NCBI GenBank assembly: GCA_964016885.1
Contig: OZ024746.1
Coordinates: 99,138,001-99,202,000, forward strand
Direction: 5' to 3'
DNA: 64,000 nt
Origin: Eledone cirrhosa
Taxonomy: Eukaryota
In this document: piece by piece, positions 271 to 59,726 of the stretch
How positions within the stretch are numbered: position 1 is the stretch's first letter
How the letters are laid out: each line of letters begins with the position of its first letter
Made by a program: the position numbers and the translations under genes
Notes under the pieces: generated by a model
Databases searched by the model: none
Seen by the model: only the letters and a program-made list of their open reading frames with translations
Told to the model about the DNA's origin: nothing

Positions 271-496
271 ATGTAGTGCTCTTGACAACCTGAGCAGGTC
301 AAAACATAGATCAAAATAAATCAACTAATACCTTAACAGTTCTCACAAAGTAAAACATTTCGTTTTAATCATTTTCTAACCTAGAAAAGAGAGAGAGAGA
401 GAGAGAGAGAGAGACAAAAAAGGAAAAAAATATATTTTCTTAATCCTCATAATCGTCTCTTTCTCCCTGTTTTCATATATATATATATATATATTC

Positions 497-9586: not shown

Positions 9587-9625
9587 TGAACAAGTACTTT
9601 CATGCTTTCGCAATCTTCAGGTTCA
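9587..9625 (-). ncRNA. Candidate minimal type-I hammerhead lacking stem II
   Basis: tgaac-CTGAAGA-ttgc-GAAA-gcatgaaagtac-TT-gttca; 5-bp stem I; in a ~170-bp island between two (TA)n tracts. Confidence 0.45.
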
Positions 9626-16650: not shown

Positions 16651-16764
16651 TTAGCGCTTCTTCTACAATAGATTATAAATAAATGATGAAATTCTTCAGG
16701 ATTCCTACGTCTCTCAAGGATATACCACTACCATCAGCATGGGATTTTATTCTTTCCATCTCAT

Positions 16765-17765
16765 ATAGGATGGAAAGAATAAAATATAATGACTTAATTT
16801 TAAATGAATTGAGGAAAAATTATAAAAATACCCCAAGTGAGTATTTATTGGACATTAATAATGAGGCATTCAAAATTATCACCAATCTTGGAATAGAGCG
16901 GAAGACAGAATCTTTCATACCAAAACAGCCGCGGATTAATTTTAAAGACCATAAAAGAAACTTTGAGGAGGATTTACCAGTAAGACTCATAGCACCTTCT
17001 AAATCCGATCTTGGAATAATTAGTAAAAATATAATAAATAGGATTTTACCAACACTTAAATTGAAATCACAGCTAAATCTATGGAAAGGCACAAGTGAAG
17101 TTATAGATTGGTTCATAAATATTAAACATAAAAATAATTATAATTTCATTCAAATGGATATAGCCAGTTATTATTCCTCGATAACTCCAAATCTATTAAA
17201 TAAGGCGCTATCATATGCATATAAACACACAGACCTATCTAGTGAGGAGATAAATATTATATTAATAGCAAGGTGAACCTTGATTGATTTTAATAATGAT
17301 CTTTGGACTAGGGCAAATAGACAGAAGAATTTTGACATAACTATGGGTTCATCAGATTCGGCGCAAGTTACAGATCTTATGGGCATTTTTATCCTTAACA
17401 TGATAAATAGAAAATTGCAGGAGATTACCGGAGGTTTATACAGGGACGACATACTATTTATTGTAGAAAAAAATAACAATAGTGAATTAAATAGAGTAAA
17501 GAAAGCAATTATAGAATTTTTTTAAAATTATGACCTGAAATTAGAAGTAGAAAATAATAATAAAATAGTCAATTTTTTAGATGTGACTCTAAATCCGAAA
17601 TCAGGCCTTTATTATCCTTTCCATAAAGTCAATGAGAACTTAAATTATGTTAGTTTTTATTCTAATCATCCTAAAAGTGTTAAGAACGCAATAGTCAACA
17701 GTGAACAACAACGAATATCCAGCCTATCTGCTAATAGATCCATATTTAATAGTAAGGCTTTTTTA
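16765..17765 (+). pseudogene. Penelope-like element reverse transcriptase, Naiad-type, decayed
   Basis: One frame with two stops (TGA 17274, TAA 17523): KDHKRNF..VRLIAPSKSDLG, LNLWKGTSEVIDWF, FIQMDIASYYSSI, FDITMGS, GLYRDD, VNFLDVTL, SNHP. Confidence 0.85.
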
Positions 17766-18145: not shown

Positions 18146-18204
18146 TTTTGTCTGATGAAAACGTACTTAAACACCATTGTACCTTTGAAATATATATAAT
18201 AAAA
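18146..18204 (+). ncRNA. Type-I hammerhead ribozyme, family A, downstream of the PLE RT
   Basis: ttttgt-CTGATGA-aaacgtac...gtaccttt-GAA-ATATATAT-A-ataaaa. Confidence 0.7.
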
Positions 18205-23660: not shown

Positions 23661-24575
23661 GGCGAATTGGCAGAGTGGTTAGAACGTCAGATAGAATGGT
23701 AGAGTGGTTAGAACGTCAGATAGAATGGTAGAGTGGTTAGAACGTCAGATAGAATGGTAGAGTGGTTAGAACGTCAGATAGAATGGCAGAGTGGTTAGAA
23801 CGTCAGATAGAATGGCAGAGTGGTTAGAACGTCAGATAGAATGGTAGAGTGGTTAAAACGTCAGATAGAATGGTAGAGTGGTTAGAACGTCAGATAGAAT
23901 GGCAGAGTGGTTAGAACGTCAGATAGAATGGTAGAGTGGTTAGAACGTCAGATAGAATGACAGAGTCGTTAGAACGTCACATAGAATGGTAGAGTGGTTA
24001 GAACGTCAGATAGAATGGTAGAGTGGTTAAAACGTCAGATAGAATGGTAGAGTGGTTAGAACGTCAGATAGAATGGTAGAGTGATTAGAACGTCAGGTAG
24101 AATGGCAGAGTGGTTAGAACGTTAGATAGAATGGTAGAGTGGTTAGAACGTTAGATAGAATGGTAGAGTGGTTAGAACGTCAGATAGAATGGTAGAGTGG
24201 TTAGAACGTCAGATAGAATGGCAGAGTCGTTAGAACGTCAGATAGAATGGTAGAGTCGTTAGAACGTCACATAGAATGCTTTATGGTATTCGTTCCGGCT
24301 TTCTGCTCTCTGAGTTCAAATCCCACCGAGGTCAACTTTGCCTTTCATCCTTTCAAGGTCGATTAAAAAAAGTACCAGTCTAGTACTGGGGTCGATTCTT
24401 CCTCTATATCTCTTCCTCATTTCCTCTCTCTCACTTTCTATCTTTCCCTGGAAGAAATCCGCTGTACTCAGGCCTGGAGACAGGTGGGTTCTGCTACGTT
24501 TTAAATGCCCAAGAAACGTCGAATGTCAATACGACATCCCTAAAACTCTATCAGGAGAGTTACGGATCCATACTA
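23661..24575 (+). mobile_element. tRNA-SINE (subfamily B) with its 29-bp A-box segment amplified ~21x (23669-24278)
   Basis: Unit ggtagagtggttagaacgtcagatagaat; unamplified relatives at 35893 and 50905; B-box follows the array. Confidence 0.9.
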
Positions 24576-29555: not shown

Positions 29556-29731
29556 TTTTATGGCAGTCAATAATAAACCTGCAAAGTAAGCAGTTCAAGT
29601 TGGCAAGTCAATAAATAACAAGAAATAAACAAATGTTTATACTCAATAGAGGTTTCACTGAGAAAGTGGGCTTAAAAAGCATTGATAATTACATAAATAT
29701 TGAAAAGAAGGATAAAAGAAATTTAAGTAAT

Positions 29732-32700
29732 GAGAAAAAGGGGAAGGGGTAAAGAAGGGCAGATTTGGCTATGAGAGAAAAAGGAAGGGGTAAAGAAGGG
29801 CAGATTTGGCTATGAGAGAAAGGGGAAGGGGTAAAGAAGGGCAGATTTGGCTATGAGAGAAAAAGGAAGGGGTAAAGAAGGACAGATCTGGCTATGAGAG
29901 AAAGGGGAAGGGGTAAAGAAGGGCAGATTTGGCTATGAGAAAAAGGGGAAGGGGTAAAGAAGGGCAGATTTGGCTATGAGAGAAAGGGGAAGGGGTAAAG
30001 AAGGACAGATCTGGCTATGAGAGAAAGAGGAAGGGGTAAAGAAGGACAGATCTGGCTATGAGAGAAAGGGGAAGGGGTAAAGAAGGGCAGATTTGGCTAT
30101 GAGAAAAAGGGGAAGGGTTAAAGAAGGACAGATCTGGCTATGAGAGAAAGGGGTAGGGGTAACGAAGGGCAGATTTGGCTATGAGAGAAAGGGGAAGGGG
30201 TAAAGAAGGACAGATCTGGCTATGAGAGAAAGAGGAAGGGGTAAAGAAGGGCAGATTTGGCTATGAGAGAAAGGGGAAGGGGGTAAAGAAGGGCAGATTT
30301 GGCTATGAGAAAAAGGGGAAGGGGTAAAGAAGGACAGATTTGGCTATGAGAGAAAGAGAAAGGGGTAAAGAAGGACAGATCTGGCTGTGAGAGAAAGGGG
30401 AAGGGGGTAAAAAAGGGCAGATTTGGCTATGAGAAAAAGGGGAAGGGGTAAAGAAGGACAGATTTGGCTATGAGAGAAAGGGGAAGGGGTAAAGAAGGGC
30501 AGATTTGGCTATGAGAGAAAGAGAAAGGGGTAAAGAAGGGCAGATTTGGCTATGAGAGAAAGGGGAAGGGGTAAAGAAGGGCAGATTTGGCTATGAGAGA
30601 AAGAGAAAGGGGTAAAGAAGGGTAGATTTGGCTATGAGAGAAAGGGGAAGGGGTAAAGAAGGACAGATCTGGCTATGAGAGAAAGAGGAAGGGGTAAAGA
30701 AGGACAGATCTGGCTATCAGAGAAAGGGGAAGGGGGTAAAAAAGGGCAGATTTGGCTATGAGAAAAAGGGGAAGGGGTAAAGAAGGGCAGATTTGGCTAT
30801 CAGAGAAAGGGGAAGGGGGTAAAAAAGGGCAGATTTGGCTATGAGAAAAAGGGGAAGGGGTAAAGAAGGGCAGATTTGGCTATGAGAAAAAGGGGAAGGG
30901 GTAAAAAAGGGCAGATTTGGCTATGAGAGAAAGGGGAAGGGGTAATGAAGGGCAGATTTGGCTATGAGAGAAAGGGGAAGGGGTATAGAAGGGAAGATTT
31001 GGCTATGAGAGAAAGGGGAAGGGGCAAAGAAGGACAGATCTGGCTATGAGAGAAAGAGGAAGGGGTAAAGAAGGACAGATCTGGCTATGAGAGAAAGAGG
31101 AAGGGGTAAAGAAGGAGAGATCTGGCTATGAGAGAAAGAGGAAGGGGTAAAGAAGGACAGATCTGGCTATGAGAGAAAGGGGAAGGGGGTAAAAAAGGGC
31201 AGATTTGGCTATGAGAAAAAGAGGAAGGGGTAAAGAAGGACAGATCTGGCTATGAGAGAAAGGGGAAGGGGTAAAGAAGGACAGATCTGGCTATGAGAAA
31301 AAGAGGAAGGGGTAAAGAAGGACAGATCTGGCTATGAGAGAAAGAGGAAGGGGTAAAGAAGGAGAGATCTGGCTATGAGAGAAAGAGGAAGGGGTAGAGA
31401 AGAGCAGATTTGGCTATGAGAAAAAGGGGAAGGGGTAAAAAAGGGCAGATTTGGCTATGAGAGAAAGGGGAAGGGGTAAAGAAGGGCAGATTTGGCTATG
31501 AGAGAAAGGGGAAGGGGTAAAGAAGGGCAGATTTGGCTATGAGAAAAAGGGGAAGGGGTAAAGAAGGGCAGATTTGGCTATGAGAAAAAGGGGAAGGGGT
31601 AAAAAAGGGCAGATTTGGCTATGAGAGAAAGGGGAAGGGGTAAAGAAGGGCAGATTTGGCTATGAGAGAAAGGGGAAGGGGTAAAGAAGGGCAGATTTGG
31701 CTATGAGAGAAAGGGGAAGGGGTAAAGAAGGGCAGATCTGGCTATGAGAGAAAGAGGAAGGGGTAAAGAAGGAGAGATCTGGCTATGAGAGAAAGAGGAA
31801 GGGGTAAAGAAGGACAGATCTGGCTATGAGAGAAAGAGGAAGGGGTAAAGATGGACAGATCTGGCTATGAGAGAAAGAGGAAGGGGTAAAGAAGGAGAGA
31901 TCTGGCTATGAGAGAAAGGGGAAGGGGTAAAGAAGGACAGATCTGGCTATGAGAAAAAGAGGAAGGGGTAAAAAAGGACAGATCTGGCTATGAGAGAAAG
32001 AGGAAGGGGTAAAGAAGGAGAGATCTGGCTATGAGAGAAAGAGGAAGGGGTAAAGAAGGACAGATCTGGCTATGAGAGAAAGGGGAAGGGGTAAAGAAGG
32101 GCAGATCTGGCTATGAGGGAAAGGGGAAGGGGTAAAGAAGGGCAGATTTGGCTATGAGAAAAGGGGGAAGGGGTAAAGAAGGGCAGATTTGGCTATGAGA
32201 GAAAGAGGATGGGGTAAAGAAGGAGAGATCTGGCTATGAGAGAAAGAGGAAGGGGTAAAGAAGGACAGATCTGGCTATGAGAGAAAGGGGAAGGGGTAAA
32301 GAAGGACAGATCTGGCTATGAGAGAAAGAGGAAGGGGTAAAGAAGGACAGATCTGGCTATGAGAGAAAGAGGAAGGGGTAAAGAAGGAGAGATCTGGCTA
32401 TGAGAGAAAGGGGAAGGGGTAAAGAAGGGCAGATCTGGCTATGAGAGAAAGAGGAAGGGGTAAAGAAGGAGAGATCTGGCTATGAGAGAAAGAGGAAGGG
32501 GTAAAGAAGGACAGATCTGGCTATGAGAGAAAGGGGAAGGGGTAAAGAAGGACAGATCTGGCTATGAGAAAAAGAGGAAGGGGTAAAAAAGGACAGATCT
32601 GGCTATGAGAGAAAGAGGAAGGGGTAAAGAAGGAGAGATCTGGCTATGAGAGAAAGAGGAAGGGGTAAGAAGGACAGATCTGGCTATGAGAGAAAGGGGA

Positions 32701-33423
32701 AGGGGTAAAGAAGGGCAGATCTGGCTATGAGGGAAAGGGGAAGGGGTAAAGAAGGGCAGATTTGGCTATGAGAAAAGGGGGAAGGGGTAAAGAAGGGCAG
32801 ATTTGGCTATGAGAGAAAGAGGAAGGGGTAAAGAAGGAGAGATCTGGCTATGAGAGAAAGAGGAAGGGGTAAAGAAGGACAGATCTGGCTATGAGAGAAA
32901 GGGAAGGGGTAAAGAAGGACAGATCTGGCTATGAGAGAAAGAGGAAGGGGTAAAGAAGGAGAGATCTGGCTATGAGAGAAAGGGGAAGGGGTAAAGAAGG
33001 GCAGATCTGGCTATGAGAAAAAGAGGAAGGGGTAAAAAAGGACAGATCTGGCTATGAGAGAAAGGGGAAGGGGTAAAGAAGGACAGATCTGGCTATGAGA
33101 AAAAGAGGAAGGGGTAAAAAAGGACAGATCTGGCTATGAGAAAAAGAGGAAGGGGTAAAAAAGGACAGATCTGGCTATGAGAAAAAGAGGAAGGGGTAAA
33201 AAAGGACAGATCTGGCTATGAGAGAAAGAGGAAGGGGTAAAGAAGGAGAGATCTGGCTATGAGAGAAAGAGGAAGGGGTAAAGAAGGACAGATCTGGCTA
33301 TGAGAGAAAGGGGAAGGGGTAAAGAAGGGCAGATCTGGCTATGAGGGAAAGGGGAAGGGGTAAAGAAGGGCAGATTTGGCTATGAGAAAAGGGGGAAGGG
33401 GTAAAGAAGGGCAGATTTGGCTG
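29732..33423. repeat. 41-bp purine-rich minisatellite, ~90 copies
   Basis: Unit gagagaaaggggaaggggtaaagaagggcagatttggctat; period 41 (29761 to 29802). Confidence 0.98.
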
Positions 33424-37411: not shown

Positions 37412-37919
37412 CAAAGTGTTAAAACGATCAAATTTTAGTTTAGAACATTTATTAGCTGACAATTGTTTCTTCCAGAGGGAAGTCTGGAATCATCGGAGCA
37501 TAAGGAATGTCGAAAATGTGTAACTAGAACCCTTGTCATTTAGAACATTTAGGGTACATAGTTGTTATTAGTGTCAAAGGCATCATGTGGAGATTCGGGA
37601 GTTAAAAAGATGTTCTGCTTGAAATAACACAATTACAGGCAGCACTGGTTGGAAGTGTAATAGGTATAAGTAAAACCAAAAAACACAAGCAAAAAAAAAC
37701 ACAAGGAAAGAAGTTATAGGCAAGGATAATTGGTGTACAATGCAGGAGTCAATACAGTCAATAAGGCATGTATGAGGAAAGGGTTATAATGCAGTTGAAA
37801 TAAACATATTTTGTGTGGGGTGTTAAAGTAAGTTATATTTGTTATACTGGTAACCGGATAGAACTTAGTACTACATATTTATAGTTATATCAAACATATA
37901 TAAATATAGATTTAAATAT

Positions 37920-37966
<47 letters not shown>

Positions 37967-38150
37967 AAATACAACTGGCTAGTACTTAGTACTACCCTCC
38001 ATATTTATAATTATATCATAAACCATATATATGTACATATATATATATAGATATATATATGTATATATATATATGTATATATATATGTATATATATATAT
38101 GTATATATATGAATATATATATATATGTATGTATATATATGTATATATAT

Positions 38151-39143
38151 ATATAAAATCAAGGTCTAGCAAATAGAGAAAAAGTTTTTAAATAAATAAA
38201 AAAAAATTCGCTGTACTTACTATATGTGTCTTTACCGCGGTTTCATGTTCCAGAATAAACGGAAAATCCAAGCGAATTTTCATTGAGAAGGGAGCAATCT
38301 TCAGAAGGCTCTCCTCCTTCGGAGAATATAAAATTCCCGAGTTCAAATCGCAAACTGACGCCATACAAAACCATTCCCACATGAGAGCGGATGATAAAAG
38401 AAATAATTCTGTCTGGTGCCGTGTGCAAAGACAAAAGGCAGGGTGGACAGGTCTATAGCGGGAATACTGGGTTGCATGAATGTAACAAGGAATACATTGT
38501 TTGTGTAGATATATATTTAATTAACAATGGTAGATAGTATAGTTGACATGTCAAAGAAATAGATGATAGAATGAAACAAAGTGAGTAGTTACCGTTTTGA
38601 TTGCCAGGCAAACGCGACTGGCAGAGGACGCCTGGCTAAGGCCAGGCGCCTGTTGGCCAAATGACAGGCAGAGCCAAATGAGAGGCTCTTGACCTGGTGC
38701 CGAAAAGGCAGTGAGAGAGTGAGTGCTTAAAGTTGTTAGTTTTATAGGGTTCTGACCGGAAGTTGCAGAAAGGGTTCTACTTCCCGTCTAGATCCAAACA
38801 AGGGAGACAACCGCTACAGGTCAATGTCCTGCCACTAGAAATAGCAGCAGTCCAAACGGCCAAACTTTTATCTCTACCTTAGGGGAGATCAATAATAATA
38901 ATTGTTTCTACTTTTTGGCACAAGGCCAGCAAATACCCAGTGTATTACTGGTACAATAATAATAATAAAGTATGAATTCCTACGTGTAAAAAATACATAT
39001 AGGGAAACAAGTATTATCCAACCGTATGCCAATGTGGTTCTATGGCGGGTTAATAAATTAACAAGCCAGAACATATAAAATCAAGGTCTAGCAAATAGAG
39101 AAAAAGTTTTAAAATAAATAAAAAAAAATTCGCTGTACTTACT
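38151..39143 (-). mobile_element. Non-coding element with ~70-bp terminal direct repeats and an HHR, bounded by (TA)n
   Basis: Repeats 38151-38221 and 39073-39143; SINE tail inserted at ~38898-38953. Confidence 0.7.
38230..38307 (-). ncRNA. Type-I hammerhead ribozyme
   Basis: ctt-CTGAAGA-ttgctcc...ggaacat-GAA-ACCGCGGT-A-aag; palindromic stem III, GUA triplet. Confidence 0.65.
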
Positions 39144-39174
39144 GTATATATGTATATATATATATTTAAATATA

Positions 39175-39293
<119 letters not shown>

Positions 39294-39691: not shown

Positions 39692-40126
39692 GTGGGTGTG
39701 AAAAAATGAGAATGTTTCTAAGCTATGATACGTTCCATTTCAGTCATACAATGTTTTATTGCACTTGTTGACATTGCTGGCTTCTCCGTCTGTAGATTGA
39801 AACTGAAGTTAACTTCCTGTTTACAAGGCCTAAAATTGAAATATAGGAAAGCGAGAACTAAAAGTAACTTCTCAACAATTGCAACGATATCCTAAACAGC
39901 ATTACGATGGGAGCCTATGAGTTGGCAAGTTCCTGATGTAAACGATATGTGTAGAAAGGAAAGTCTGACAGGATATATTGGTAAGGATATACCCCCGCAA
40001 AATTTGCGAAATAAACAAGTTGAAACAAGGAAACTTATGGAGAGTTTGAATGCATTAATCCAGAATAAAAGTTGTATGATTTGTGATTTCACAAACTTGA
40101 AACAATAGATTGAGAACATAATATTA

Positions 40127-40345
40127 ATTGTTTCTTATATAGGCACAAGGCCAGTAATTTGGGGAGAGGGGAAAGTCGATTAAATCGACCCCCCTGCATT
40201 ACTGGTACTTTATTTTATCGACCCCATAAGGATGAAAGGCAAAGTTAACCTCGGCGGGATTTGAGCTCAGATCATAAAGAGCCGTAACTCTATGCTGCAA
40301 AGCATGGCGTCCAACCTTCTACCGATACTGCCAATCCACCGCCCT
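40127..40345 (-). mobile_element. tRNA-SINE (main family)
   Basis: Full-length reverse complement. Confidence 0.9.
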
Positions 40346-40385: not shown

Positions 40386-41960
40386 GGAAGCAAGTGGCCT
40401 AGTGGTAAGGGTGTAGGACTTATCAAGTGACCTAGTGGTAAGGGTGTAGGACTTATCAAGTGACCTAGTGGTAAGGGTGTAGGACTTATCAAGTGACCTA
40501 GTGGTAAGGGTGTAGGACTTATCAAGTGACCTAGTGGTAAGGGTGTTGGACTTATCAAGTGGCCAAGTGGTAAGGGTGTAGGACTTATCAAGTGACCTAG
40601 TGGTAAGGGTGTAGGACTTATCAAGTGACCTAGTGGTAAGGGTGTAGGACTTATCAAGTGACCTAGTGGTAAGGGTGTAGGACTTATCAAGTGACCTAGT
40701 GGTAAGGGTGTTGGACTTATCAAGAGGCCTAGTGGTAAGGGTGTAGGACTTATCAAGTGACCTAGTGGTAAGGGTGTAGGACTTATCAAGTGACCTAGTG
40801 GTAAGGGTGTAGGACTTATCAAGTGACCTAGTGGTAAGGGTGTTGGACTTATCAAGTGGCCTAGTGGTAAGGGTGTTGGACTTATCAAGTGACCTAGTGG
40901 TAAGGGTGTTGGACTTATCAAGTGACCTAGTGGTAAGGGTGTTGGACTTATCAAGTGACCTAGTGGTAAGGGTGTAGGACTTATCAAGTGACCTAGTGGT
41001 AAGGGTGTAGGACTTATCAAGTGGCCTAGTGGTAAGGGTGTAGGACTTATCAAGTGGCCTAGTGGTAAGGGTGTTGGACTTATCAAGTGACCTAGTGGTA
41101 AGGGTGTTGGACTTATCAAGTGACCTAGTGGTAAGGGTGTTGGACTTATCAAGAGGCCTAGTGGTAAGGGTGTAGGACTTATCAAGTGACCTAGTGGTAA
41201 GGGTGTAGGACTTATCAAGTGACCTAGTGGTAAGGGTGTAGGACTTATCAAGTGACCTAGTGGTAAGGGTGTAGGACTTATCAAGTGACCTAGTGGTAAG
41301 GGTGTAGGACTTATCAAGTGGCCTAGTGGTAAGGGTGTAGGACTTATCAAGTGACCTAGTGGTAAGGGTGTTGGACTTATCAAGTGACCTAGTGGTAAGG
41401 GTGTTGGACTTATCAAGTGACCTAGTGGTAAGGGTGTTGGACTTATCAAGTGACCTAGTGGTAAGGGTGTTGGACTTATCAAGTGACCTAGTGGTAAGGG
41501 TGTAGGACTTATCAAGTGGCCTAGTGGTAAGGGTGTTGGACTTATCAAGAGGCCTAGTGGTAAGGGTGTTGGACTTATCAAGTGGCCTAGTGGTAAGGGT
41601 GTTGGATTTATCAAGTGGCCTAGTGGTAAGGGTGTTGGACTTATCAAGTGACCTAGTGGTAAGGGTGTTGGACTTATCAAGAGGCCTAGTGGTAAGGGTG
41701 TTGGACTTATGTCCGTAACGTTGTCGGTTCAATTCCTGGACTGGGTTGTGTTATGTTCTTGAGTAAAACACATCATTTTAAGTCGCTGTAGTTTACTCAA
41801 CTGAAAATGAGTACCAGCAATAACTGGGTGGTTTAGCCCTGTGATGGACTGGCGTCCTGTCCAGGGTACATCTTGTACTCTCAGTCACTGAACGCCACAG
41901 AAACTAGGATATGCTCCGTCCTGATGAACATCCGAACTTGAAACAGACTTTAGACTTAGA
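40386..41960 (+). mobile_element. V-domain-like tRNA-SINE with its 33-bp A-box segment amplified ~40x (40393-41709)
   Basis: Unit gtggcctagtggtaagggtgtaggacttatcaa; then B-box ggttcaattcc, gttcttgagtaaaacac and ccctgtgatggactggcgtcctgtccaggg. Confidence 0.88.
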
Positions 41961-43376: not shown

Positions 43377-45135
43377 GTGTGTGATATTGTCATAGATGAT
43401 ACATATGTGTGTGATATTGTCATATATGATACATATGTGTGTGATATTGTCATATATGATACATATGTGTGTGATATTGTCATAGATGATACATATGTGT
43501 GTAATATTGTCATATATGATACATATGTGTGTAATATTGTCATATATGATACATATGTGTGTGATATTGTCATAGATGATACATATGTGTGTGATATTGT
43601 CATATATGATACATATGTGTGTGATATTGTCATAGATGATACATATGTGTGTGATATTGTCATAGATGATACATATGTGTGTGATATTGTCATATATGAT
43701 ACATATGTGTGATATTGTCATATATGATACATATGTGTGTGATATTGTCATAGATGATACATATGTGTGTGATATTGTCATATGTGTGTGATATTGACCA
43801 TATATGATACATATGTGTGTGGTATTGTCTATATATGATACATATGTGTGTGATATTGTCATAGATGATACATATGTGTGTGGTATTGTCATATATGATA
43901 CATATGTGTGTGGTATTGTCTATATATGATACATATGTGTGTGATATTGTCATAGATGATACATATGTGTGTGGTATTGTTATATATGATACCTACGTGT
44001 GTGATATTGCCATATATGATACATCCGTGTGTGATATTGTCATATATGATACATATGTGTGTGATATTGTGATAGATGATACATATGTGTGTGATATTGT
44101 CATAGATGATACATATGTGTGTTATATTGTCATAGATGATACATATGTGTGTGATATTGTCATATATGATACATATGTGTGTGATATTGTGATAGATGAT
44201 ACATATGTGTGTTATATTGTCATAGATGATACATATGTGTGTTATATTGTCATAGATGGTACATATGTGTGTGATATTGTCATAGATGATACATATGTGT
44301 GTGATATTGTCATATATGATACATATGTGTGTTATATTGTCATAGATGGTACATATGTGTGTGATATTGTCATAGATGATACATATGTGTGTGATATTGT
44401 CATATATGATACATATGTGTGTGATATTGTCATATATGATACATATGTGTGTGATATTGTCATAGATGATACATATGTGTGTGATATTGCCATAGATGAT
44501 ACATATGTGTGTGGTATTGTCTATATATGATACATATGTGTGTGATATTGTCATAGATGATACATATGTGTGTTATATTGTCATAGATGGTACATATGTG
44601 TGTGATATTGTCATAGATGATACATATGTGTGTGATATTGTCATATATGATACATATGTGTGTGATATTGTCATAGATGATACATATGTGTGATATTGTC
44701 ATATATGATACATATGTGTGTGATATTGTCATAGATGATACATATGTGTGTTATATTGTCATAGATAATACATATGTGTGATATTGTCATATATGATACA
44801 TATGTGTGTGATATTGTCATAGATGATACATATGTGTGTTATATTGTCAATATGATACATATGTGTGTGATATTGTCATAGATGATACATATGTGTGTGA
44901 TATTGTCATAGATGATACATATGTGTGTTATATTGTCATATATGATACATATGTGTGTGATATTGTCATATATGATACATATGTGTGTGATATTGTCATA
45001 GATGATACATATGTGTGTGATATTGTCATAGATGATACATATGTGTGTGATATTGTCATAGATGATACATATGTGTGTTATATTGTCATAGATGATACAT
45101 ATGTGTGTTATATTGTCATAGATGATATATACGTG
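43377..45135. repeat. 30-bp minisatellite (gtgtgtgatattgtcatagatgatacatat), ~58 copies
   Basis: Directly visible. Confidence 0.98.
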
Positions 45136-45216
45136 TAAAATTCTTTCACATTTTTTCGGAGAGTTTTAAAATATATTTTAACAGAATATTATTTTTCTTT
45201 TATTATTATTAATAAG

Positions 45217-59409: not shown

Positions 59410-59476
59410 TTTTATTATGCGCATTTCAAAAACAAACATCATCATGCAATAATATTTGTGTTTTCATCAGATAAAA
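59410..59476 (-). ncRNA. Type-I hammerhead ribozyme, family C (left arm)
   Basis: Reverse complement of 59660-59726. Confidence 0.8.
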
Positions 59477-59659
59477 CAGGAGAACATGATATGAAGGCTA
59501 AAAAACACCTGTGGATAGTGCAGCCTTAAATCAACATATGAAAAGTGGTTTTAGATTGTGGTTTAGAAAGTGGTTTTCAATCTAAAACCACTTTTCATAT
59601 GTTGATTTAAGGCTGCACTATCCACAGGTGTTTTTTAGCCTTCATATCATGTTCTCCTG

Positions 59660-59726
59660 TTTTATCTGATGAAAACACAAATATTATTGCATGATGATGT
59701 TTGTTTTTGAAATGCGCATAATAAAA
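59660..59726 (+). ncRNA. Type-I hammerhead ribozyme, family C (right arm)
   Basis: ttttat-CTGATGA-aaacacaaatatt...gatgtttgttttt-GAA-ATGCGCAT-A-ataaaa; palindromic stem III, perfect stem I. Confidence 0.8.

What the first reader, a model, noticed from the sequence alone, without database searches (positions are those of the whole stretch)
38151..39143. Retrozyme-like unit: (TA)n - repeat - body - HHR - repeat - (TA)n
Seen on the minus strand: a ~70-bp direct repeat at both ends (period ~922 bp including a short SINE insert), with an intact-looking HHR immediately upstream of the downstream repeat and no meaningful ORF. Inference: a slightly more-than-unit-length cDNA, as expected from reverse transcription around a circular or tandem RNA processed by the ribozyme. 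It would be larger than typical metazoan non-LTR retrozymes.
Basis: partly seen in the sequence, partly recalled or inferred. Interest (0 to 1): 0.75.

Follow-up and report, generated by a model that had tools for sequence, protein, structure and literature searches.

The report
Penelope-type retrozyme copy with nested insertions
This is one worn copy of a 487-base non-coding repeat with a predicted self-cutting RNA fold, found at hundreds of places in this animal genome and swollen here to 922 bases by two later insertions; its copies end at two fixed, paired sites, so a Penelope-type jumping-gene enzyme likely copied it from RNA.

Summary
The 71-bp repeat (period 922), the (TA)n flanks and a type I hammerhead core are real. 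It is a 1.15-monomer, 5'-truncated insertion of a family with at least 435 motif matches genome-wide. Helix II covaries between two subfamilies; this copy has a mismatch in helix I and one in helix II. 5' ends vary. 3' ends lie not at the ribozyme cut but 84 or about 193 nt past it, in (TA)n. Of 46 head-to-head insertions with both ends assignable (65 found), 44 use one site per arm. A coding Penelope-like element here does the same (13 of 13). Repeats and arms of one insertion share a haplotype, and 30 of 185 arms cross two cut sites, so the template was continuous: a circle or an uncut tandem RNA, not resolved. No autonomous partner was found; no RNA data. Verdict: a new family of the known non-LTR retrozymes. 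The scan already noted this two-armed pattern in other families of this genome.

The parts
38151..39147 (-). Whole insertion: 5'-truncated 1.15-mer (about +8/+12 of one unit through +82/84 of the next; +1 = first base after the predicted cut) of a 487-bp hammerhead retrozyme family, with two nested insertions
   Evidence: 95.4-97.7% to the family majority in three blocks
39073..39143 (-). Upstream copy of the repeat (+12..+82): the overlap beyond one unit. The 5' junction shares ATATA with the (TA)n target
38962..39070 (-). 'Tail' between the two fixed 3' end sites E1 (+84) and E2 (+190-197), about 110 nt
38902..38957 (-). 3' end of a SINE (56 nt) inserted in the (TTA)n at E2, with an 11-nt target duplication
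   Evidence: absent from the other family copies fetched
38454..38818 (-). Solo LTR, 365 bp, TGTAGCG...CGCTATA, 4-bp target duplication GACC, from a non-coding LTR element (LTRs 1.6-1.8 kb apart elsewhere)
   Evidence: (4884 first-look candidates, 40 scored)
38228..38309 (-). Type I minimal hammerhead fold: helix I 5 bp, core CUGAAGA/GAAA, helix II 6 bp with a long extension, helix III 2 bp with palindromic loop ACCGCGGU; predicted cut after GUA at 38233. This copy has mismatches at 38229 and 38248
38166..38220 (-). Intron-like stretch, 55 nt (GTAAGT ... pyrimidine tract TAG); also at 39142-39088. Splicing untested; acceptor mostly lost in subfamily B; no spliced genomic copy found
38151..38221 (-). 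Downstream copy of the repeat, ending at the main 3' end site E1 (...GATTTTATAT) in (TA)n
39145..39226 (.). (TA)n target, 5' side
37896..38155 (.). (TA)n target, 3' side (degenerate array)

Best explanation
The locus is one 1.15-unit copy of a 487-bp non-coding hammerhead repeat, later enlarged by a solo LTR and a SINE end, and the family was likely spread by a Penelope-like element's reverse transcriptase/GIY-YIG protein acting in trans on an RNA that is continuous across the predicted ribozyme cut. Shown: the unit closes on itself; copies lie in (TA)n; 5' ends vary; 3' ends lie at +84 (E1) or +190-197 (E2); one-armed copies mostly end at E1; two-armed, head-to-head copies use E1 for one arm and E2 for the other; parts of one insertion share a haplotype. 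Inferred: the protein nicks (TA)n, and the first DNA end primes at E1, helped by pairing of TA with UUUUAUAU. The other end either joins the cDNA directly (as here) or primes a second cDNA at E2, and the two cDNAs then join by a few bases of microhomology. The enzyme reads through the cut site, so the template is a re-ligated circle or an uncut tandem transcript; I put these at about 55:45. The ribozyme, likely acting as a dimer in tandem RNA, would cut out monomers for circularisation. This copy has one damaged ribozyme and is likely inert.
For: Unit and nesting. Copy number: 138 and 435 exact motif matches, reversed-pattern controls 0. Ends, automatic classes. First set, 102 loci: 48 head-to-head = 36 E1/E2, 1 E1/E1, 0 E2/E2, 11 with an unassigned end; 54 one-armed = 47 E1, 6 E2, 1 other. 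Second set fetched after the rule was noted, 40 loci: 17 head-to-head = 8 E1/E2, 1 E1/E1, 8 with an unassigned end; 23 one-armed = 17 E1, 3 E2, 3 other. 44 of 46 against 0.5: p 1.5e-11; second set alone, 8 of 9: p 0.02. Inversion junctions overlap by 1-7 nt in 46 of 67. An identical TTTTATAT at +388-394 is not used as an end, so position or structure matters too. Positive control: a young coding element (1217-codon frame with YVDD and YIGET motifs, L240) has one short and one tailed arm in 13 of 13 inverted insertions (12 by script; L232 read). Haplotype agreement at common variable sites: 134 of 139 in direct repeats (86 expected), 216 of 232 between arms (144 expected). Shared non-majority bases: 0.0075 per site against 0.0022 in cross-locus controls (direct repeats). 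54 of 185 arms exceed one monomer and 30 cross two cut sites. Helix II: 4 of 6 pairs change on both sides between subfamilies, 96% of cells paired. The monomer folds at -128 against -105+/-5 kcal/mol in 40 shuffles. Papers: two RT start sites define the tail, both strands are nicked and extended, a dimer is predicted, and uncut RNA is the main template (PMC11167929); tail often at one end only (PMC8557442).
Against: No coding element shares sequence with this family: none among 85 loci from four protein queries, apart from nested copies of the family itself, nor among 20 longer coding loci. The partner is therefore unidentified. 19 of 65 head-to-head insertions have an end outside both classes, and 2 are E1/E1. 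Haplotype sharing also follows if one source locus was active at a time, and the comparisons are not independent. The helix II covariation is essentially one subfamily split plus one smaller variant (pairs with a two-sided change: 182 of 500 shuffles as high). The only long array (19 full units) is not star-like: neighbours share variants and divergence rises with distance (rho 0.23, p 0.003), as in a satellite, so it does not support many turns round a circle. No A-to-G editing bias (0.74% vs 0.74%). 5 of 33 arms stop just short of the second cut site (background 5.8%, p 0.04, window chosen after the fact; 1 of 47 at the first arrival), a weak hint of some cut linear templates.
Confidence: 0.8

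Rival explanations
1. Rolling-circle reverse transcription on one circular monomer RNA by two enzyme subunits explains all multi-unit and two-armed copies (the strong form of the first reader's idea).
For: Same haplotype in repeats and arms; locus-private variants shared between passes, e.g. three in L117; 30 of 185 arms cross two cut sites, two exceed two monomers; circular RNAs are shown for coral, mussel and axolotl retrozymes (PMC7229834 passages).
Against: Arms are short (only 2 of 185 above two monomers). The 19-mer looks like later satellite expansion. In vitro the anole Penelope protein used uncut linear RNA.
Confidence: 0.45
2. Templates are read-through transcripts of genomic dimers or arrays that escape cleavage; no circle is needed and the ribozyme is an inherited Penelope feature or trims the RNA.
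For: Partial tandems and a 19-mer exist as possible sources. Ribozyme mutants did not impair insertion in vitro (PMC11167929). 8 of 9 frog retrozyme dimers did not cleave (preprint). Weak excess of 5' ends near the second cut site, where this copy also ends.
Against: Units of the known array differ by 11%, whereas repeats inside insertions differ by 5.4% and share haplotypes, so that array as it stands is not the source. Helix II was kept through a subfamily split.
Confidence: 0.35
3. The sequence is the terminal repeat (pLTR) of an undetected coding Penelope-like element, and the short copies are its truncations.
For: Intron-like signals next to the ribozyme and an ATG in the helix II loop resemble pLTR anatomy (PMC11167929, PMC8557442). 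The searches for coding partners covered only a few families.
Against: Every long copy fetched returns to its own start after about 487 bp, in both subfamilies; none continues into an RT or nuclease frame.
Confidence: 0.08
4. Single-copy body with a local duplication, or satellite DNA spread without RNA.
For: One array shows satellite-like turnover.
Against: Hundreds of dispersed copies with fixed, strand-polar 3' ends, 5' truncation and inversions.
Confidence: 0.02

Closest known systems
Metazoan non-LTR retrozymes (Cervera and de la Pena 2020, PMC7229834, passages read; Li, Clavereau and Pollet 2026, 10.64898/2026.07.22.740005, parts 1-3 of 5 read)
   Same: Non-coding, low-GC unit with one type I hammerhead per unit; monomers, partial tandems and arrays; proposed to be moved by Penelope-like elements; size inside the 51-972 bp range of the preprint.
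   Different: 487 bp against about 300 typical. Minimal Penelope-type ribozyme with a 53-nt helix II arm that Rfam does not detect. Mostly dispersed sub-dimer copies. In the parts read, neither paper describes fixed 3' ends or two-armed insertions. Circular RNA and cleavage are shown there for other species, not here.
Penelope-like elements, EN+ (PMC11167929 parts 1-2 of 4; PMC8557442 and PMC3846280 passages; PMC4209133 part 1 of 4)
   Same: Minimal hammerhead with 5-bp helix I, unpaired base before helix II and palindromic loop 3; 5' truncation; partial tandems; inverted 5' copy; microsatellite targets; tail at one end only; intron-like signals near the ribozyme.
   Different: No RT or nuclease frame. 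Tail about 110 nt, against 30-40 bp in those papers. Both start sites carry short TA-like homology to the target, whereas the anole protein started at a non-homologous site.
Plant LTR retrozymes (as summarised in PMC7229834 and the preprint)
   Same: Non-autonomous, hammerhead-bearing, direct repeats at the ends.
   Different: Those have true LTRs with type III ribozymes, PBS, PPT and 4-bp duplications. Here the LTR is an unrelated passenger and the terminal repeat is only the overlap beyond one unit.

Membership tests
Non-LTR retrozyme | Type I hammerhead in each repeat unit | tested here: met
   for the family; this copy has one ribozyme with two helix mismatches
Non-LTR retrozyme | Head-to-tail tandem units (dimers to multimers) | tested here: met
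   487-bp period in partial tandems and a 19-unit array. The window copy itself (one ribozyme) fails the preprint's 'active' criterion of two
Non-LTR retrozyme | No protein coding; no own LTR, PBS or PPT | tested here: met
   the nested LTR is absent from other copies
Non-LTR retrozyme | RNA self-cleavage | not testable with these tools
   fold and covariation only
Non-LTR retrozyme | Expressed as monomeric linear and circular RNA | not testable with these tools
   needs RNA reads or bench work
Autonomous Penelope-like element | ORF with RT and GIY-YIG domains | tested here: not met
   unit closes after 487 bp
Penelope-type mobilisation (works like) | 5' truncation, partial tandems, inverted 5' copy, tail at one end, AT/microsatellite target | tested here: met
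   same pattern in a coding element
Penelope-type mobilisation (works like) | Sequence homology to the pLTR of a coding partner | tested here: inconclusive
   no match in the coding loci sampled; sampling far from complete
Penelope-type mobilisation (works like) | Retained spliceosomal intron near the ribozyme | tested here: inconclusive
   donor kept in both subfamilies, acceptor mostly only in A; 0 spliced genomic copies; no RNA
Plant-type LTR retrozyme | Type III ribozyme in true LTRs, PBS, PPT, 4-bp duplication | tested here: not met
   type I fold; ends in (TA)n

The most novel reading that the evidence does not exclude
A dimeric Penelope protein copies one circular 487-nt ribozyme RNA from both ends of a nicked (TA)n site, one subunit starting at +84 and the other at +193, running round the circle past the re-ligated cut. 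The window copy is the one-armed product of that reaction, and the family's 110-nt tail is a cis signal shared with a 667-bp sister retrozyme.
Probability: 0.35. Interest if true: 0.7.

Novelty: new member of a known kind. Interest (0 to 1): 0.42.

Why it matters
As a locus it is ordinary: a decayed retrozyme copy whose size comes from two passengers. The family is more useful. It puts numbers on a remark in the Penelope literature that the tail is often at one end only: one-armed copies end at the first site, and two-armed copies pair the first with the second, in a non-coding passenger as in a coding element of the same genome. This predicts which RT start site each target strand uses, and can be tested in the published in vitro system. 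It does not settle whether a circular RNA is the template. The scan has younger families in this genome that suit that question better.

Tried and rejected
Rfam: no hammerhead hit. The free MFE fold of the window ribozyme region is unremarkable (z -0.23). RNA-editing scars, a lead from note e1-8803865: none. Search for the autonomous partner with four nuclease or RT fragments and 20 longer coding loci: no nucleotide match and no translated match (best E 0.16). An apparent match of +73..+254 to sequence downstream of a coding element in L247 turned out to be another retrozyme inserted there, so it is no link to a coding partner. The GAGTGCT-like motif seen in the tails of other families is absent from this tail. 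The 19-mer as proof of a rolling circle: rejected. The open frames on the monomer as genes: weak shuffle excess, no Pfam hit. Spliced junction: 0 matches. Pfam also gave nothing for the 1217-codon control frame, so calling it Penelope-like rests on motifs, its ribozyme and its tandem layout, read with my own knowledge; clade labels (Neptune, Hydra, Poseidon) are recalled, not tested. One search's alignment pattern was faulty and was redone. Literature searches listed no paper on cephalopod retrozymes or on twin priming in Penelope elements; the library lacks most subscription papers and I read no supplements.

Full report
Observation. The repeat is real: 39143-39073 and 38221-38151 match at 98.6% over 71 nt, 922 bp apart, between (TA)n tracts. 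The minus strand carries CUGAAGA (38304-38298) and GAAAC-CGCG-GUA with a predicted cut after 38233. The window is G000:C6:99138001-99202000 in a 3.0-Gb genome. Earlier scan notes call it cephalopod; I did not test that.

The 922 bp are three things. A genome search with the whole unit returned, besides itself, almost only its middle 365 bp (4884 first-look candidates, 40 scored). That piece starts TGTAGCG, ends CGCTATA and is flanked here by GACC. Elsewhere it occurs as pairs 1.6-1.8 kb apart, with a PBS-like and a purine-rich flank, or alone with 4-bp duplications. It is a solo LTR. A 56-nt SINE end sits in a (TTA)n with an 11-nt duplication. Other copies lack both, and the monomer is 487 bp. 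The window copy runs from about +8/+12 through one unit to +82/84, where +1 is the base after the predicted cut: 1.15 monomers, 95-98% identical to the family majority.

The family. Two exact patterns gave 138 and 435 matches, with 0 for reversed controls. I analysed 102 distinct loci first (duplicate loci, the window copy and the array left out) and 40 more after noting the end rule. The first 29 were the best-scoring hits, the rest mostly the first listed pattern matches, so the sample favours copies that keep the ribozyme. The second set included an older subfamily B, about 80% identical. Every long copy returns to its own start; none leads into coding sequence.

Ribozyme. The family folds as a minimal type I hammerhead: helix I 5 bp, an unpaired base, helix II 6 bp with a long extension, helix III 2 bp closed by the palindrome ACCGCGGU. 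This matches the Penelope min-HHR description, which proposes dimeric action (PMC4209133 part 1). In 23 aligned natural copies chosen to include both subfamilies, 4 of 6 helix II pairs change on both sides and 96% of its cells pair. This reflects mainly one subfamily split. The window copy keeps the core but has mismatches at 38229 and 38248 and folds at -8.7 against -24.2 kcal/mol. Rfam finds no hammerhead. Cleavage is untested.

Ends. 5' ends scatter round the unit, with a hot spot in the helix II arm (19 of 185 at +429..445, p 3e-5 before correction). 3' ends fall at E1 (+78-86) or E2 (+186-202), into (TA)n. Of 77 one-armed insertions, 64 end at E1, 9 at E2 and 4 elsewhere. Two of the nine (L040, L123) are E1/E2 two-armed copies on inspection; I left them as the script classed them. 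Of 65 head-to-head insertions, 44 pair E1 with E2, 2 are E1/E1, none is E2/E2 and 19 have an unassigned end (some interrupted, some 10-30 nt short of a site). The second set alone gave 8 of 9 (p 0.02 against 0.5). Junctions between arms overlap by 1-7 nt in 46 of 67 cases. Both sites end in TA-like bases, but the same motif at +394 is unused. As a control, a young coding element with a 1217-codon frame has one short and one tailed arm in 13 of 13 inverted insertions (11 picked as opposite-strand pairs, 2 seen in its loci). The literature describes a 30-40 bp tail often at one end only (PMC8557442 and PMC3846280 passages), and maps the tail to two RT start sites of a protein that nicks and extends both strands and is predicted to be a dimer (PMC11167929).

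Template. 54 of 185 arms exceed one monomer, 30 cross two cut sites and 2 exceed two monomers (L097 and L040 left out). Direct repeats in one insertion agree at 134 of 139 common variable sites (86 expected), opposite arms at 216 of 232 (144 expected) (L097 left out). This means one source haplotype per insertion; it does not prove one molecule. The enzyme mostly read through the cut site: 28 of 33 arms passed the second one. Five stopped just short of it, as does the window copy (p 0.04, after the fact), but only 1 of 47 stopped at the first arrival. A 19-unit array between (TA)n tracts ends at E1, but its units differ by 11% with neighbour-shared variants, which points to later satellite turnover. 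There is no editing bias. Circle versus uncut tandem RNA stays open.

Partner. None was found. The region +73..+254 is homologous to a 667-bp sister retrozyme (119 identities in 170 aligned columns, score 74 against a shuffle maximum of 45). One copy of a close relative of that sister (L182) ends at the position aligned with E1.

Comparison and verdict. The element meets the sequence-level definition of a non-LTR retrozyme (PMC7229834 passages; preprint parts 1-3) and works like a Penelope passenger. It is not an autonomous element and not an LTR retrozyme. I noted the end pairing before consulting earlier notes. These then showed the same two-armed pattern in the 310- and 422-nt families and related retrozyme families of 467 and 518-601 nt in this genome; a sequence look-up found no note on this family. 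Four literature searches listed nothing on this family or on counted end pairing; supplements were not read and could bear on that. New member of a known kind; interest 0.42.

Noticed in passing
window 38454-38818; full elements e.g. L003/L004, L008/L009, L024: High-copy non-coding LTR element: 365-bp LTRs about 1.6-1.8 kb apart, PBS-like and purine-rich flanks, 4-bp duplications, many solo LTRs.
   Followed up: partly
window 59416-59720: Head-to-head pair of another hammerhead family, ending +43 on one arm and +133 on the other; its inversion junction gives the 160-bp hairpin that Rfam scores as plant miRNA-like.
   Followed up: partly
window 9620(-), 10218, 18152, 22837(-), 33843, 48558(-), 55466, 58378, 60138(-), 61010, 62263: About ten further type I hammerhead motifs of several families in this 64-kb window. 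The one at 9620 has the same helix II start as this family but a 4-nt loop.
   Followed up: no
window 16683-17276 (+): 197-codon frame resembling a Penelope-type RT fragment (my reading; no Pfam hit), upstream of the hammerhead at 18152.
   Followed up: partly
L092/L093, G000:C1:176443889-176453338: 19 full units plus two partial ones of this family in one array between (TA)n tracts, with array-specific variants in the middle and more ancestral edge units.
   Followed up: yes
L240, L241, L224-L239: Very young, abundant coding Penelope-like family (36,800 first-look candidates; frames to 1217 codons with an asparagine-rich insert); tail ends 46-60 nt past the first end site; no Pfam hit.
   Followed up: partly
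L247, L182, L051: A 667-bp-period retrozyme with a long-armed hammerhead, donor- and acceptor-like signals and a tail region homologous to this family's.
   Followed up: partly
L127:98-1060: Tandem array of a 311-bp hammerhead unit next to a copy of this family.
   Followed up: no
family position +29..+40: The T-run/A-run boundary after the donor varies even between repeats of one insertion, unlike other sites; unexplained.
   Followed up: no
window 40391-41710, 23668-24278, 29730-33422, 43377-45136: Minisatellites of 33, 29, 41 and 30 bp; the 33-bp array abuts a full SINE copy at about 40120-40340.
   Followed up: no
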